A DNA stretch of 64,000 nt from assembly GCA_963711215.1 (NCBI GenBank), contig CAVQDH010000014.1:178628-242627 (forward strand), written 5' to 3'. A program made the translations under genes and the position numbers. Positions 13,234-20,739 of the stretch are shown in pieces. Source of the stretch: an uncultured Alphaproteobacteria bacterium (GTDB taxonomy: Bacteria > Pseudomonadota > Alphaproteobacteria > UBA8366). The notes under the pieces were generated by a model that saw nothing but the letters and a program-made list of their open reading frames with translations, had not been told where the DNA came from and made no database searches. Position 1 is the stretch's first letter, and the number at the start of each line of letters is the position of its first letter.

Positions 13234-13309
<76 letters not shown>

Positions 13310-16342: not shown

Positions 16343-16654
16343 GCTCCGGCCGCGATGGCGGACGCAGAGGTGTCGCTTGGCGTCGTTCGCGATGTCGGGA
16401 CGGGCATCGGACAGGGCGTGTTTCGATCGTTCGAAAGCGCCGCGACATCATGTTTCGCCGGCGCGAGCAGGACGGCGTCCGCCAATGGGTCGCGCGATTA
16501 TTCCCTTCGCACCTGCACACAAATGTTCACGGCGCGGTGCGGTTCCGGAATAGTGCCGGCGCGGCGGAAAAGTGCCGAATCGCCACCGTGAGGGCCGCCG
16601 CTCGAGACCGCTGATCACGGAACGATCAAGCGCGGTAACTGAAATATCACCGTT

Positions 16655-16836
16655 ATTTCAAAATCTTAGCGTTGAAGGTTGTGCCTGAGCTGACCATCTC
16701 TCGGACAGGCCGGCACTCGGCCGGCGGAAACCGACACGGGATCCGTGCAAGTTTTTTAAAATGAAGGTTGTGGCTGGGCCGACCATCTCTCGGACAGGCC
16801 GGTGATCGGCCGGCGGAAACCCCCGACACGGGATCC
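16655..16836 (+). repeat. Tandem ~89-bp duplication of a promoter plus leader element
   Basis: TGAAGGTTGTG.CTG.GC.GACCATCTCTCGGACAGGCCGG....CGGCCGGCGGAAACC(CCC)GACACGGGATCC at 16673-16744 and 16762-16836. Confidence 0.9.
16672..16699 (+). promoter_or_regulatory. Putative promoter TTGAA-N17-CCATCT (RpoH-like); further copies at 16761-16788 and 17518-17545
   Basis: Boxes and 17-bp spacing conserved in three copies while the spacer sequence varies. Confidence 0.6.
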
Positions 16837-16882
16837 CCCCGTCGCCAAGGTTTCTCTTCACCAAACACTAGGAGTGGCAGAA

Positions 16883-17185
16883 ATGAAGAAATTGATGGTT
16901 CCTTTGGCTCTCGCATTCGCCCTGTCGGCGACCGGAGCGGCCTTTGCTGCAACGTCCAGCGATCCGGACGCGTATCTCTACGCACAGCCGAGCCCGTTCG
17001 CGCAGCCGACGGATTCGGTCGGGTCGCAGACCGTCGCGCAGACGCCGGACCCGCGGCTCGATCCCGAGTCTCAGGAGGCCAACCTGTCGCAGCAGACCTA
17101 CGCGGCCATGCCGCAACATCAGCACCAGGCTTCTTCCGATCCGTGGACCCAGGACGGCATCTTCGGGCCCTATGGGCCGGAATAA
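16883..17185 (+). CDS. Secreted small protein A, 100 aa, with DAYLYAxPSPFA and PWTQDGIFGPYGPE motifs
   Basis: AGGAG RBS, Sec signal ending AFA-A; paralog at 17641. Confidence 0.85.
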   Translation: MKKLMVPLALAFALSATGAAFAATSSDPDAYLYAQPSPFAQPTDSVGSQTVAQTPDPRLDPESQEANLSQQTYAAMPQHQHQASSDPWTQDGIFGPYGPE

Positions 17186-17210
17186 GCCTGCGCGCGATTG
17201 CAGCAGACTG

Positions 17211-17253
17211 GAAGGGGCAAGACGGCCGGGGGAAGTCACTCCCGGCCGCCTTC
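17211..17253 (+). terminator. Conserved 3' hairpin after peptide A
   Basis: CGGCCGGGG-GAAGTCA-CTCCCGGCCG stem with outer GAAGG/CCTTC pairing; weak U-tract. Confidence 0.6.
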
Positions 17254-17500
17254 CATTGTGCGCGCCGTTACGTCGGCGCCGAACCTTCGCAAGCATCTGA
17301 GACGCGCGATGAAGGCCCGGATGCCGAAGCATTTTCCCGAGATCACGCGCGAACCTGCCGGCCACACGCCCGATCACGGCGCGGTGTGGGCTCGGCCCGG
17401 CGAAGAAGGCCGGGAAACCGCGGCTGCGGTCATCTTTTCCCGCCGTTTGGCGGCCACGGCTCACGCAGCCGTCACGGGGGTTGGCCGGAGAATCACCATC

Positions 17501-17576
17501 ATTTCAAAATCTTAGCGTTGAAGGCGGCGGTCTGGCTCGCCATCTCTCGGGCAGGCGGGGACCGCCCCGCAGAAAT
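17501..17576 (+). repeat. Third copy of the promoter/leader element
   Basis: 24-mer ATTTCAAAATCTTAGCGTTGAAGG identical to 16655-16678, then CCATCTCTCGG.CAGG and a GGCGG/CCGCC hairpin. Confidence 0.85.
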
Positions 17577-17640
17577 TCAGGACGGCGTTCCGCCAGCAAC
17601 ACGTTCCCTTTCACCCATAGCCCTATCAAGGAGTGGCACA

Positions 17641-17928
17641 ATGCAAAAACGTATGCTTTCGATGATGGCCGTGCTTGCCATGGCGGTAAGCGGCGCCAGC
17701 TTCCTCGCGTCGGCCGCAAATGCGAGCGACGCCTATCTCTATGCCGAGCCGAGCCCGTTTGCGGTTCCGCATAAGACGGCCGGCTCCGAACAACTCGCGG
17801 CCCTGCCCACGCAGACCGCGGCTGTCGGGTCCGGGAATGTCAACACGATCAAGATGGTCAAGACGCACCATCGGCATCAGGCTCCGTGGACCCAGGACGG
17901 CATCTTCGGTCCCTATGGGCCGGAATAA
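17641..17928 (+). CDS. Secreted small protein B, 95 aa, paralog of 16883-17185
   Basis: AAGGAG RBS, signal ending ANA-S; DAYLYAEPSPFA and HRHQAPWTQDGIFGPYGPE*. Confidence 0.85.
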   Translation: MQKRMLSMMAVLAMAVSGASFLASAANASDAYLYAEPSPFAVPHKTAGSEQLAALPTQTAAVGSGNVNTIKMVKTHHRHQAPWTQDGIFGPYGPE

Positions 17929-17952
17929 GCCGCTGATCGTTCCGGCGGACAC

Positions 17953-17998
17953 GAAGGGCCAAGACGGCCGGGAGAAGCCACTCCCGGCCGCCTTCGTT
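17953..17998 (+). terminator. Conserved 3' hairpin after peptide B, possibly bidirectional with rlmB
   Basis: CGGCCGGGAG-AAGCCA-CTCCCGGCCG; near copy of 17211-17253. Confidence 0.6.
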
Positions 17999-18031
17999 CG
18001 GACTCTTCTTCTCTCTATATCTGCCGGTGCG

Positions 18032-18886
18032 CTATTTCGTGGCCGCCGCTTGATCCTGCCGGCCGCACGACAGGGCGTAGAGCGCGACCGCGGCCGCGTT
18101 CGAGACGTTCAGCGTCGCGATCGGGCCCTGGGTCGGCAGCCGGACCAGGATGTCGCAGCGTTCGGCGGTGAGCCGGCGGAGGCCCGAGCCTTCTGCCCCC
18201 ATGACGAGGGCCAGGCGGCCGTCGAGCCGCGCTTCGGCGACGGTGCGCTCCGCCGCCGCGTCCAGGCCGAGGCACCAGAAGCCGGCCTGCTTGATCTGCT
18301 GCAGGGCGCGCTCCAGGTTGCCGACCTCGATCAGGGGCACGTGCTCGAGCGCGCCGCTCGCGGCCTTGGCGAGCGCGCCTGTGACCGGCGGGGCGTGGCG
18401 GCGCGGCACGATGACCGCCCGGGCGCCGAAGGCGGCGCTGCTGCGGAGGATCGCGCCGACATTCTGCGGATCGGTGACCTGGTCCAGCACGACCAGGAGC
18501 GCGTCCCCGGGACTGTCGGCGAGCAGGTCTTCCAGGCTCGGCGCGGCGGGCGGCGGCGCGAGCAGCGCCAGCCCCTGATGCACCGCGCCCGGCGGCAGGA
18601 CGGCGTCGATCGCCGGCCGCTCGACGATATCCGGCCGGGCCTTGGGGCAGTCGCGTTTCAGCCGCTCTGCGGCATTGGCGGTCGCCAGCAGGCGACCCGG
18701 CCGGCGCGCGGGGTTGTTGAGCGCGGCGGCGACGGCGTGATGGCCGTAAAGCCAGCGGTCGGCCGGATTCCGGCCCTCTCGGGCGCGGCTTTCCGGCGGC
18801 TGGCCGTCCGGCCGCTTGCCCGGCGGCTTGTCGCGCCGTCGGCGGCCGGCGCGGTGACCGTCTCGGGGTAACTTGATTTTTACCAT
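18032..18886 (-). CDS. rlmB: 23S rRNA (Gm2251) methyltransferase, SpoU/TrmH family
   Basis: WLYGHHAV, VHQG, LDQVTDPQNVGAILRS, MGAEGSGLRRL, LNVSNAAAV. Confidence 0.92.
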   Translation of the reverse strand: MVKIKLPRDGHRAGRRRRDKPPGKRPDGQPPESRAREGRNPADRWLYGHHAVAAALNNPARRPGRLLATANAAERLKRDCPKARPDIVERPAIDAVLPPGAVHQGLALLAPPPAAPSLEDLLADSPGDALLVVLDQVTDPQNVGAILRSSAAFGARAVIVPRRHAPPVTGALAKAASGALEHVPLIEVGNLERALQQIKQAGFWCLGLDAAAERTVAEARLDGRLALVMGAEGSGLRRLTAERCDILVRLPTQGPIATLNVSNAAAVALYALSCGRQDQAAATK

Positions 18887-19060: not shown

Positions 19061-19145
19061 GGAGGGGTGCCTGAGCGGTTAAAAGGGACGGACTGTAAAT
19101 CCGTTGGCTAAGCCTACGTTGGTTCGAATCCAACCCCCTCCACCA
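19061..19145 (+). tRNA. tRNA-Tyr(GTA)
   Basis: GGAGGGG...ACGGA CT GTA AA TCCGT, variable arm, GTTCGAATC, CCA end. Confidence 0.96.
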
Positions 19146-19231: not shown

Positions 19232-19306
19232 GCGGGCGTCGTATAATGGCCATTACCCCAGCCTTCCAAGCTGGAGACGCGGGTTCGATTCCCGCCGCCC
19301 GCTCCA
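19232..19306 (+). tRNA. tRNA-Gly(TCC)
   Basis: GCGGGCG...CCAGC CT TCC AA GCTGG...GTTCGATTC...CCA. Confidence 0.95.
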
Positions 19307-19443
19307 AGCGGCACGATGGCGCAGGGCGGCGCGATGGCGAAGGGAAGGTATCGTGGGTTGTCCCGCAGACGCAGTCGATGCCCGGAAATCGGCCTCGCGG
19401 TCGGCGATGATCGGCAAGTTAACCAGCAGGAAGATATAGACCA

Positions 19444-20635
<1,192 letters not shown>

Positions 20636-20663: not shown

Positions 20664-20739
20664 AGGAGTGTAGCTCAATTGGTAGAGCGCCGGTCTCCAA
20701 AACCGGAGGTTGGGGGTTCGAGACCCTCCACTCCTGCCA
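20664..20739 (+). tRNA. tRNA-Trp(CCA)
   Basis: AGGAGTGTAGCTCAATTGGTAGAGCGCCGGTCTCCAAAACCGG...GCCA; canonical position before secE. Confidence 0.96.

What the first reader, a model, noticed from the sequence alone, without database searches (positions are those of the whole stretch)
16646..17998. Duplicated cassette encoding secreted peptides with fixed ends and a variable core
Seen: two complete units, each with promoter element, leader hairpin, AGGAGTGGCA RBS, Sec signal, DAYLYA[QE]PSPFA, a poorly alignable 35-40-aa middle, HxHQA, PWTQDGIFGPYGPE-stop and a conserved 3' hairpin. Signal peptides and cores have diverged strongly while both terminal motifs are almost invariant. I recognise no family. 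Inference: a new family of exported peptides. Options include leader/follower-flanked precursors processed by an enzyme encoded elsewhere, self-assembling or surface-sorted proteins with a C-terminal tag, or stress-induced periplasmic ligands.
Basis: partly seen in the sequence, partly recalled or inferred. Interest (0 to 1): 0.85.

Follow-up and report, generated by a model that had tools for sequence, protein, structure and literature searches.

The report
Duplicated small secreted stress-protein genes
Two neighbouring copies of a gene for a small, exported, probably unfolded protein of an undescribed and very rare family sit behind what looks like a heat-shock promoter; the genes are real and unnamed, but their job is still unknown.

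Summary
Two tandem units (about 16608-17254 and 17454-17996) each carry a conserved upstream block, a promoter, a GC hairpin, a GGAG ribosome site, a CDS (16883-17185, 100 aa; 17641-17928, 95 aa) and a 3' stem-loop. The two proteins are 44% identical, with near-identical N- and C-terminal motifs.

They belong to a real but very rare family. Pfam, NCBIfam and PDB give no match. A profile search of 1.84 billion proteins found 26 representatives, all 77-116 aa. Among genomes, only the window's own genus has convincing matches.

Family-wide features:
- A Sec-type signal peptide.
- An LYxxPxPF motif.
- An SQ[QR]AS motif in the "variable" core.
- A terminus ending in Pro-Glu in 28 of 30 sequences.

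AlphaFold2 predicts no fold.

The invariant upstream blocks GTTGAA-N16-xCCATCT match the RpoH (sigma-32) promoter type. The lon, hsp20, clpB and dnaK genes of this genome carry the same type.

The 3' stem-loop occurs only at the three family genes of this genome and shows compensatory changes. Metatranscriptome contigs cover unit 2.

My reading is stress-induced, exported, disordered proteins that act through terminal docking motifs. I found no support for a modified-peptide precursor or a sorting tag. Interest is modest.

The parts
16608..16670 (+). Unit 1 conserved upstream block: TCACG 16615-16619, ATCAA 16625-16629, TCACC 16647-16651, A/T-rich ATTTCAAAA 16655-16663 directly upstream of the -35
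   Evidence: Invariant columns in the alignment of 7 upstream regions from 5 lineages; repeat D2. Its role (UP-element-like or regulator site) is inferred.
16671..16699 (+). Unit 1 promoter a: GTTGAA (16671-16676), N16, ACCATCT (16693-16699), RpoH (sigma-32) type
   Evidence: TTGA and CCAT-T are invariant, with a fixed spacer length and variable spacer sequence. Same architecture as lon, hsp20, dnaK, clpB and htpG of this genome. Published S. meliloti RpoH consensus as quoted in PMC4843759.
16700..16757 (+). Leader copy a: GC hairpin 16708-16725, then hairpin CACGGGATCCGTG plus T6 (16735-16757), terminator-like
   Evidence: Whether it ends a short RNA or attenuates is not known.
16760..16788 (+). 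Promoter copy b from the 89-nt tandem duplication: -35 degraded to AATGAA, -10 ACCATCT intact (16782-16788)
16789..16882 (+). Leader copy b with GC hairpin 16797-16814 and AGGAG 16870-16874
16883..17185 (+). CDS 1, 100 aa (P0001): signal peptide ending AFA|A, DAYLYAQPSPFA, SQEAN, HQHQA, PWTQDGIFGPYGPE-stop
   Evidence: GC at codon positions 1/2/3 = 0.64/0.51/0.77
17210..17254 (+). Family-specific 3' stem-loop of unit 1 (core CGGCCGGGGG 17223-17232 with CTCCCGGCCG 17239-17248)
17454..17516 (+). Unit 2 conserved upstream block
17517..17545 (+). Unit 2 promoter: GTTGAA (17517-17522), N16, GCCATCT (17539-17545)
17546..17640 (+). Unit 2 leader with GC hairpin 17555-17571 and GGAG 17630-17633
17641..17928 (+). 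CDS 2, 95 aa (P0002)
   Evidence: Metatranscriptome contigs cover 17614-17960 and 17783-17933.
17952..17996 (+). Family-specific 3' stem-loop of unit 2 (core 17965-17974 with 17981-17990)

Best explanation
These are two tandem, separately transcribed paralogues of an undescribed, lineage-restricted gene family. Each encodes a precursor of about 100 aa. A Sec-type signal peptide is removed, and a mature protein of about 70-78 aa that has no stable fold of its own is released into the periplasm or beyond.

Each gene is read from a promoter of the RpoH (sigma-32, heat-shock) type, GTTGAA-N16-xCCATCT, with a conserved A/T-rich and TCAC-repeat block upstream. Each is closed by a 3' stem-loop found only at genes of this family. 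This stem-loop probably ends or protects the transcript.

The protein most likely acts in the cell envelope under heat or protein-folding stress. It would do so through short docking motifs: LYxxPxPF near the mature N-terminus, and an aromatic residue followed by a free ...Pro-Glu carboxyl end. These would bind a partner that has not been identified.

Shown: the genes, the family, the motifs, the promoter-like blocks, the stem-loop, and the presence in RNA libraries. Inferred: export, disorder, sigma-32 dependence, docking.
For: Real genes and a real family:
- The two proteins are 44% identical, E 1e-26.
- A third, distant paralogue lies elsewhere in the genome.
- There are 26 representatives of 77-116 aa among 1,835,955,588 proteins.
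- Synonymous differences occur within the conserved C-terminal codons, and third-position GC is 0.71-0.81.

Export: 28 of 30 sequences have a K/R n-region plus AxA. Only 1 of 30 has a Cys, so there is no lipobox.

No fold: AlphaFold2 with 30 sequences gives mean pLDDT 56.4 and pTM 0.16, with no element beyond the signal helix and one 4-residue helix. The mature proteins have only 8-13 large hydrophobic residues out of 70-88.

Terminal motif: 28 of 30 end in PE.

Promoter:
- In 7 upstream regions from 5 lineages, TTGA and CCAT-T are invariant. They are 17 nt apart while the spacer sequence varies.
- The same layout stands before lon (CTTGAT-N16-GCCATCT) and hsp20 (GTTGAT-N16-CCCATCT).
- It also stands before dnaK, clpB, both groES copies, a second hsp20 (read by eye) and htpG.
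- The S. meliloti RpoH1/RpoH2 consensus is CTTGAA or CTTGCC, N15-16, CCTATAT or CCTATCT (passage in PMC4843759). For R. etli it is cTTGaa-N16-CgATaT (passage in PMC4167512).
- The strict pattern occurs 4 times in the genome, and 2 of these are here. Five shuffles gave 0-1.
- The looser pattern has 17 non-coding-looking sites with a gene downstream. The 15 other than the two units include clpB, hsp20, a thioredoxin-TPR protein, an S41-PDZ protease, BolA, DsbB and rubrerythrin.
- rpoH is present in the genome.

Stem-loop:
- It occurs only at the 3 family genes of this genome.
- 94.9% of cells pair, against at most 57.3% when the partner is slid. Four pairs change on both sides. 0 of 500 shuffles reach the covariation score.
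- The covariance model scores 43.5-59.4 bits at family genes. The best forward-strand match elsewhere in 91 genomes of the order scores 34.1 bits.

Transcript: a 347-nt metatranscriptome contig covers 17614-17960, and a 151-nt contig in two other runs covers 17783-17933.
Against: - No experiment exists, and no transcription start was seen. RNA contigs cannot show starts, and DNA can be present in RNA libraries.
- Alphaproteobacterial sigma-70 and sigma-32 consensus sequences overlap. My weight matrix, built from 8 heat-shock promoters, ranked unit 1 only 43rd in the genome. It also scored sites before genes that look like rpoZ and dksA by eye. The loose pattern is near chance genome-wide: 111 observed against 88-103 in shuffles.
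- The conserved TCAC blocks upstream could mean an activator-dependent promoter of another kind.
- The third paralogue has a different upstream region. Its RpoH-like match is not kept in the sister genome.
- Low pLDDT can also come from a shallow alignment.
- No dedicated signal-peptide predictor was available.
- A C-terminal Pro-Glu does not fit the usual hydrophobic ends bound by PDZ domains (recalled knowledge).
- No partner was identified.
Confidence: 0.5

Rival explanations
1. Same exported proteins, but the promoter is not RpoH-dependent. It would be a housekeeping sigma-70 promoter, or one that depends on a regulator bound to the conserved TCACG / ATCAA / TCACC blocks (for example a response regulator). 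The genes would then answer to another signal.
For: Three TCAC-like blocks about 10 and 21 nt apart are invariant upstream of the -35. In two metagenome loci TCACGG and CCGTGA form an inverted repeat. The heat-shock weight matrix also scores sigma-70-like sites. The R. etli paper reports overlap of RpoH and SigA predictions (passage).
Against: With A of CCAT as -11, the -10 has no T at the position equivalent to -7 in any of the 7 promoters (CCATCTC or CCATGTG). Its invariant letters CCAT-T are those shared with lon, hsp20 and clpB of this genome.
Confidence: 0.25
2. The proteins are pro-peptides. After export they are cut to release a small active end (such as the C-terminal DGIFGPYGPE) as a signal, or they are modified by an enzyme encoded elsewhere (leader/follower-type precursor).
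For: The conserved extreme C-terminus and the Sec export resemble Phr-type pro-peptides (recalled). The two paralogues differ most in the middle.
Against: No modifying enzyme, receptor or transporter gene lies beside any copy; the neighbours are PNP_UDP_1, PALP and SpoU_methylase. The same rlmB-like neighbour is seen in G026 and in two metagenome loci. The paralogues share the same end rather than diverging in it. There are no Cys and no Ser/Thr/Cys-rich core. The middle holds a conserved SQ[QR]AS motif in 25 of 30.
Confidence: 0.1
3. They are periplasmic metal sponges of the PcoE/SilE kind: disordered proteins that bind copper, nickel or zinc through a Met/His cluster.
For: HH or HxH within the last 30 residues, often with Met nearby (MPQHQHQ, MVKTHHRHQ), in 6 of 30 sequences, all six among the 11 that end GxxGxxGPE. 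A PcoE cluster is among the nearest named Atlas clusters, at 0.84, which is a lead only.
Against: 24 of 30 lack the His cluster, including unit 1 orthologues (P0004, P0006, P0008). There is no Pfam match at E up to 10. No metal-resistance genes lie nearby. An Atlas score under 0.9 is often chance, by the tool's own account.
Confidence: 0.08
4. They are self-assembling or surface-attached proteins whose C-terminal (Gly-X-Y)3 end drives assembly or sorting.
For: The end GIF-GPY-GPE is three Gly-X-Y triplets, present in 11 of 30.
Against: Three triplets are too few for a collagen-type helix (recalled). 19 of 30 lack them while keeping PE. No membrane helix or basic tail follows the motif, as known sorting signals require.
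Confidence: 0.04
5. The open frames are not translated, and the conserved pieces act as RNA or DNA.
For: The last 49 nt of the two CDS are 98% identical, much more than the rest. Conserved non-coding elements flank the frames.
Against: Homologues keep length, frame, start and stop. There are synonymous changes in the conserved codons across genomes, and third-position GC is high. In the X12 contig, 6 of the 13 listed differences fall on third codon positions, and none falls in the terminal motif codons (my count).
Confidence: 0.02

Closest known systems
RpoH (sigma-32) heat-shock promoters of Alphaproteobacteria (S. meliloti RpoH1 CTTGAA-N15-16-CCTATAT, RpoH2 CTTGCC-N15-16-CCTATCT; passage in PMC4843759)
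   Same: -35 matches in 5 of 6 letters, the spacer is 16, and the -10 matches in 5 of 7. The architecture is the same as lon, hsp20, dnaK, clpB and htpG of this genome.
   Different: The first letter is G rather than C, and the -10 has CCAT rather than CTAT. A long conserved upstream block is present that heat-shock genes here do not show. The products are exported proteins rather than cytoplasmic chaperones or proteases.
PcoE / SilE periplasmic disordered metal-binding proteins (PF27346)
   Same: Small size, a signal peptide, a prediction of no fold, and Met/His clusters in some members.
   Different: No sequence match. The His cluster is present in only 6 of 30. No metal-resistance context. 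Conserved LYxxPxPF and terminal PE are not PcoE features as far as I recall.
DUF680 (PF05079) and other small secreted proteins of unknown function in Alphaproteobacteria
   Same: A secreted protein of about 80-100 aa with a narrow taxonomic range. Nearest named Atlas cluster, at 0.85.
   Different: No Pfam match at E up to 10. The score is below the tool's own level for a lead.
Phr/PapR-type Sec-exported signalling pro-peptides of Firmicutes
   Same: A small Sec-exported precursor with a functionally important C-terminal end (recalled).
   Different: No adjacent receptor gene. It is twice as long. The paralogues share the same end. The host is a Gram-negative lineage.
PEP-CTERM and similar C-terminal sorting signals
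   Same: A conserved Pro-Glu-containing motif near the C-terminus of a secreted protein.
   Different: The chain ends at PE. The membrane helix and basic tail that define those signals are absent.

Membership tests
Any Pfam / NCBIfam family | Score above the curated cut-off of a family model | tested here: not met
   Pfam: P0001 has one hit at 12.2 bits against a cut-off of 28.5; P0002 has none; the third paralogue has none. NCBIfam: two sub-threshold hits on residues 1-25 only for P0001; none for P0002.
Any solved structure (PDB) | Significant profile match to a PDB chain | tested here: not met
   Best E 0.057. The hits are signal-peptide-like stretches.
RpoH (sigma-32)-type promoter | -35 CTTGAA-like, spacer 15-16, -10 CCTATNT / CCCCATNT-like | tested here: met
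   GTTGAA-N16-ACCATCT and GTTGAA-N16-GCCATCT. The published consensus was seen as a passage. The E. coli consensus is recalled only.
RpoH (sigma-32)-type promoter | Conserved hexamers with a fixed spacer length across orthologues | tested here: met
   7 of 7 upstream regions keep TTGA, N17, CCAT-T with differing spacers.
RpoH (sigma-32)-type promoter | Transcription depends on RpoH and rises on heat shock | not testable with these tools
   Only assembled RNA contigs were available.
RpoH (sigma-32)-type promoter | Sequence distinguishes it from sigma-70 promoters | tested here: inconclusive
   The weight matrix ranks unit 1 43rd and also picks sigma-70-like sites.
Sec (SPase I) signal peptide | Basic n-region, hydrophobic core, AxA cleavage site, no lipobox Cys, no twin-Arg | tested here: met
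   28 of 30 by pattern; Cys in 1 of 30. No dedicated predictor was run.
Modified-peptide (RiPP) precursor | A modifying enzyme or transporter gene beside the precursor | tested here: not met
   The neighbours are PNP_UDP_1, PALP and SpoU_methylase. An enzyme encoded elsewhere is not excluded.
PcoE/SilE | Match to PF27346 and repeated Met/His motifs | tested here: not met
   No Pfam hit. HH or HxH in 6 of 30.
PEP-CTERM-type sorting signal | Motif followed by a membrane helix and a basic tail | tested here: not met
   The chain ends at PE.
ROSE or other Rfam leader / small RNA families | Match at the family's gathering score | tested here: not met
   Only tRNAs reach gathering scores in the window. 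In 16400-18100 the best hit is 23.8 bits against a gathering score of 50.

The most novel reading that the evidence does not exclude
The family is a heat-shock-induced set of disordered periplasmic ligands. Their invariant free ...Pro-Glu carboxyl end and LYxxPxPF motif would dock onto, and modulate, an envelope quality-control enzyme. One candidate is the PDZ-bearing S41 C-terminal-processing protease of this genome, which carries the same promoter type. The family-private 3' stem-loop would be a specific RNA element in its own right, either a binding site for an RNA-binding protein or the source of a small RNA from the 3' untranslated region, rather than a plain terminator.
Probability: 0.1. 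Interest if true: 0.6.

Novelty: new variant of a known kind. Interest (0 to 1): 0.3.

Why it matters
If the reading is right, an uncultured soil and sediment alphaproteobacterial lineage sends a private class of unfolded proteins into its envelope under the control of the cytoplasmic heat-shock sigma factor. That would be a small addition to how envelope stress is handled in bacteria that lack the enterobacterial sigma-E circuit.

The cassette is also a tidy example of a complete expression unit kept together through duplication: upstream block, promoter, 5' hairpin, CDS and a private 3' stem-loop.

Against that, the family is tiny, has no known partner or phenotype, and comes from organisms that are not in culture. 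The practical weight is therefore low for now.

Tried and rejected
- Rfam search of the window and of the region: nothing for the leader or the 3' element.
- The search for related loci with the 10-row and 9-row alignments was not accepted because no stretch was conserved enough. Smaller alignments were used instead.
- The first metagenome scan found no relative among 596 pattern matches. The second found 2 true loci and 1 false one, L020, a lipoprotein-like ORF.
- The genome-contig scan returned only the G027 contig.
- Class-level sample: no match in 400 other genomes. This is a sample, not proof of absence.
- A consensus fold of the 5' leaders across all 8 copies gave no pairs. Within the genus it gave a weak consensus of -6.65 kcal/mol, 11 pairs, 4 with double changes. 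I therefore do not claim a conserved leader RNA structure beyond 'a GC hairpin right after the -10 in each within-genus copy'.
- Single-sequence leader folds were not better than shuffles (z -1.62, +0.94, -0.37).
- The general-stress (EcfG) promoter idea, GGAAC-N16-17-CGTT, was rejected by eye: the spacing is 27 nt in unit 1 and the letters are not conserved.
- The RpoH-like match upstream of the third paralogue was rejected because it is not conserved in G027.
- Complex prediction with three copies of the mature part gave no verdict.
- Atlas look-alikes were all unnamed clusters at 0.90, or named ones at 0.84-0.85. These are leads only.
- Paper search for four motif strings found 0 papers.
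- Earlier findings of this scan: nothing by place or by sequence.
- The three weak order-level protein hits outside the genus (E 1.4e-4 to 7.3e-4, N-terminal part only) were not examined and are not counted as members.
Full report
WHAT IS THERE

Reading the region and listing ORFs confirms two units on the + strand.
- Unit 1 has its CDS at 16883-17185 (100 aa, P0001).
- Unit 2 has its CDS at 17641-17928 (95 aa, P0002).
- Each CDS is preceded by GGAG 7-8 nt before the ATG.
- The proteins share 44 of 101 aligned positions, E 1e-26.
- DAYLYA[QE]PSPFA differs at one position, HxHQA is present in both, and PWTQDGIFGPYGPE is identical.

The repeat finder shows that the duplication covers about 16516/16608-17254 and 17363/17454-17996. 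Local identities are:
- 63-71% for the promoter and leader;
- 73% for the N-terminal motif region;
- 98% for the last 49 nt of the CDS;
- 86% for the 3' hairpin region.

In unit 1 the promoter and leader are themselves duplicated in tandem, with an 89-nt period and 90% identity. Copy a ends in a hairpin followed by six T (16735-16757). Copy b has a damaged -35 (AATGAA) and runs into the CDS.

ARE THE FRAMES GENES, AND IS THERE A FAMILY?

Curated libraries give nothing.
- Pfam and NCBIfam have no hit above any cut-off.
- A profile search of PDB sequences gives only signal-peptide-like noise, best E 0.057.

Homologues do exist, but they are few.
- The word-index search found 5 proteins.
- The own genome holds a third, distant paralogue at C13:10511-10816.
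- A profile search that reads all 1,835,955,588 representative proteins found 26 at E up to 1e-3. Of these, 12 are at E up to 1e-10. All are 77-116 aa, so there are no fused or longer forms at that threshold.
- Ten of their clusters were looked up. Each has 1-2 members, all from metagenome sources, and where named they are 'hypothetical protein'.

Among genomes the family is narrow.
- 3 of 28 genomes of the taxonomic family match, namely all three species of the window's genus.
- In the order, 6 of 91 genomes match at E up to 1e-3. Only those three are strong; the other three (E 1.4e-4 to 7.3e-4) cover the N-terminal part only and were not examined.
- In a sample of 400 other genomes of the class there is no match.

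Coding is supported by three lines of evidence.
- Start, stop and length are kept across homologues.
- GC at codon position 3 is 0.71-0.81, against about 0.5-0.56 at position 2.
- The conserved C-terminal codons differ synonymously between genomes.

WHAT THE FAMILY LOOKS LIKE

Counts on the 30-sequence alignment:
- 28 of 30 have a basic n-region plus an AxA site.
- Only 1 of 30 has a Cys.
- 16 of 30 have strict LY..P.PF, and 21 of 30 a looser form.
- 25 of 30 have an SQ[QR]AS-like motif in the middle.
- 28 of 30 end in Pro-Glu.
- 11 of 30 end in three Gly-X-Y triplets (GxxGxxGPE), including both window proteins.
- 6 of 30 have HH or HxH in the last 30 residues.

So 'fixed ends and variable core' is true of the two window paralogues only. 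Family-wide the middle has its own motif, which unit 2 has lost. The N-terminal motif can also be lost, as in both G027 orthologues.

AlphaFold2 with this alignment gives mean pLDDT 56.4 and pTM 0.16. The only elements are the signal-peptide helix and one 4-residue helix. The mature chains have 8-13 large hydrophobic residues in 70-88 residues, and a net charge of -9 to +1. I read them as disordered, with the caveat that the alignment is shallow.

REGULATION

Upstream regions were aligned first for five gene copies from three genomes. They were then aligned for seven copies, including two metagenome loci whose proteins are only about 33-46% identical to those already in hand.

The invariant blocks are TCACG, TCA, TCAC, TTCAA, TTGA, CCAT-T and the ribosome site. 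TTGA and CCAT-T are always 17 nt apart, while the letters between them differ in every copy. That combination is the signature of -35 and -10 boxes.

Written out, the promoters are GTTGAA-N16-ACCATCT (16671-16699) and GTTGAA-N16-GCCATCT (17517-17545).

I located heat-shock genes of the same genome with Pfam models and read their upstream DNA.
- lon has CTTGAT-N16-GCCATCT.
- One hsp20 has GTTGAT-N16-CCCATCT.
- dnaK has CTTGCA-N16-CCTATAT.
- clpB has CTTGCG-N15-CCCATAT.
- htpG has CTTGCA-N16-CACATAT.
- A second hsp20 and both groES genes have similar sites. The groES sites are followed by an inverted repeat that I recognise as CIRCE from memory.
- These were read by eye apart from the sites that the scripts flagged.
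- grpE and a third hsp20 showed none.

Published consensus sequences agree.
- For S. meliloti RpoH1 and RpoH2: CTTGAA or CTTGCC, N15-16, CCTATAT or CCTATCT (passage read in PMC4843759).
- For R. etli: cTTGaa-N16-CgATaT (passage read in PMC4167512).
- The supplements of those papers were not seen.

Counts in this genome:
- The strict pattern [CG]TTGAA-N16-NCCAT[AC]T occurs 4 times, and 2 of these are here. Five block shuffles gave 0-1.
- A looser pattern gives 73 sites.
- 17 of the 73 lie in DNA without codon periodicity and have a plausible gene downstream.
- Apart from the two units, these include clpB, hsp20, a thioredoxin-TPR protein, an S41 peptidase with PDZ domains, BolA, DsbB, rubrerythrin, a metallo-beta-lactamase-fold protein, PhyH, DUF4168 and an ABC ATPase.
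- Four of the 17 were not checked against Pfam.
- rpoH itself is present (368 bits).

Several results weaken the sigma-32 reading.
- The loosest pattern is at chance level genome-wide: 111 observed against 88-103 in shuffles.
- A weight matrix built from the eight heat-shock promoters ranks unit 1 only 43rd. It also scores sites before genes that look like rpoZ and dksA (by eye). Sequence alone therefore does not separate sigma-32 from sigma-70 here.
- The conserved TCAC blocks suggest an additional, or alternative, regulator.
- The third paralogue has an unrelated upstream region. Its conserved feature is a palindrome, GTGCGAAATCGCAC, not the RpoH-like match.

I put sigma-32 dependence at about 0.6.

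RNA ELEMENTS

The 5' hairpin follows the -10 by 8-10 nt in each of the six within-genus leader copies. Its stems differ (GGCCGG/CCGGCC against GGCGGG/CCCGCC). A consensus fold is weak within the genus and absent across all eight copies. Single-sequence folds do not beat shuffles. I treat it as a likely 5'-terminal stem of the mRNA, not as a defined RNA family. Rfam has nothing for it.

The 3' element is better supported.
- The motif C[AG]GCCGGG[AG]G...C[CT]CCCGGC[CT]G occurs in 5.4 Mb only at the three family genes.
- It is present after all 7 family genes of the three genomes and after both metagenome genes.
- This includes paralogues whose proteins are about 30% identical.
- On nine sequences, 94.9% of cells pair, against 35.0-57.3% when the partner is slid.
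- Four pairs change on both sides.
- 0 of 500 shuffles reach the covariation score. The nine sequences are related, so this is not a probability.
- A covariance model built from them scores 43.5-59.4 bits at the family genes, which is expected by construction. No forward-strand site elsewhere in 91 genomes of the order scores above 34.1 bits.
- A clear T-run follows it only in some copies.

It may be a terminator or a 3' protector kept by descent, or something more specific.

EXPRESSION

Three metatranscriptome runs hold part of the stretch. When laid:
- One run gives a 347-nt contig, depth 15.2, with 15 differences, covering 17614-17960. That is unit 2 from 27 nt before the ATG to 32 nt past the stop.
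- Two other runs give a 151-nt contig covering 17783-17933 with one difference.
- Of the 13 differences listed for the first contig, 6 are at third codon positions. None lies in the codons of the terminal motif (my count).

Contigs cannot show starts, ends or strand, and DNA can be present in RNA libraries. This is only a weak sign of transcription.

CONTEXT

The neighbours are a secreted PNP_UDP_1-family protein and a PALP enzyme upstream, and a SpoU-type rRNA methylase downstream on the other strand. tRNA genes and an elongation-factor-like ORF follow. The position next to the methylase is kept in G026 and, judging by the flanking DNA, in both metagenome loci. G026 and the metagenome loci show one copy. 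G000 has two, and G027 has one orthologue of each unit on separate small contigs. The tandem duplication is therefore recent, within the genus. No enzyme, transporter or receptor gene travels with the cassette.

VERDICT

The thing is a tandem pair of genes of an undescribed, very rare family of Sec-exported, probably disordered small proteins. Each gene carries a conserved promoter of the heat-shock (RpoH) type and a family-private 3' stem-loop.

The most likely mode of action is as a stress-induced envelope protein that works through short terminal docking motifs, including a free ...Pro-Glu end. This is inferred, and the partner is unknown.

Readings as a modified-peptide precursor, a sorting-tagged protein or a metal sponge are not supported, but not all of them are excluded.

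It is a new sequence family of a familiar general kind. Its interest is modest until a partner or a phenotype is found.

Noticed in passing
window 16673-16821: An 89-nt tandem duplication of promoter plus leader inside unit 1. Copy a ends in a hairpin plus T6 (16735-16757), so it could give a short RNA of about 50 nt or act as an attenuator. Copy b has a degraded -35. The G027 orthologue (L006) has a single copy.
   Followed up: partly
G000 C13:10511-10816 (L003 1486-1791): A third, distant paralogue (102 aa) with the same 3' stem-loop but a different upstream region. That region holds a conserved palindrome, GTGCGAAATCGCAC. By eye the neighbouring ORFs look like OsmC (C13:9805-10251, - strand) and catalase-peroxidase (C13:14024-16216). 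These were not checked against Pfam.
   Followed up: partly
G000 C2:685271-686647 (L021): A lipoprotein-like S41 C-terminal-processing peptidase with PDZ domains carries the same promoter type (GTTGCC-N16-CCCCATAT). It is a candidate reader of conserved C-termini, but no link to the family was tested.
   Followed up: no
window 17188-17269 and 17889-17929 (run X1): A DNA contig of a soil metagenome joins the end of a unit-2-like CDS (up to 17929) directly to the unit-1-type 3' flank (from 17188). This points to a relative with a single or recombined unit. The 98% identity of the last 49 nt of the two CDS may likewise reflect gene conversion.
   Followed up: no
G000 C4:99361-100162: A second RpoH-like gene matches the rpoH model in two adjoining pieces (positions 5-235 and 232-269). 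It scores below the family cut-off and is possibly frameshifted or misassembled.
   Followed up: no
G000 C6:29676-29700: A partial copy of the upstream block (CACCATTATTTCAAAGGCTTAAG) with no TTGAA...CCATCT after it. Meaning unknown.
   Followed up: no
L018 260-290 and L019 1325-1350 (metagenome loci): In the distant relatives, the far-upstream conserved letters form an inverted repeat, TCACGG-N11-12-CCGTGA. This could be a regulator site. It is degenerate in the window's two units.
   Followed up: no
G027 C226:6313-6453 (L017): A match to the first half of the family profile only (positions 2-48, E 1.1e-6). It may be a further, truncated or divergent copy in the sister genome.
   Followed up: no
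window 13237-13309, 19061-19142, 19232-19303, 20664-20736: Four tRNA genes flank the region. An elongation-factor-Tu-like ORF lies at 19316-20635.
   Followed up: no
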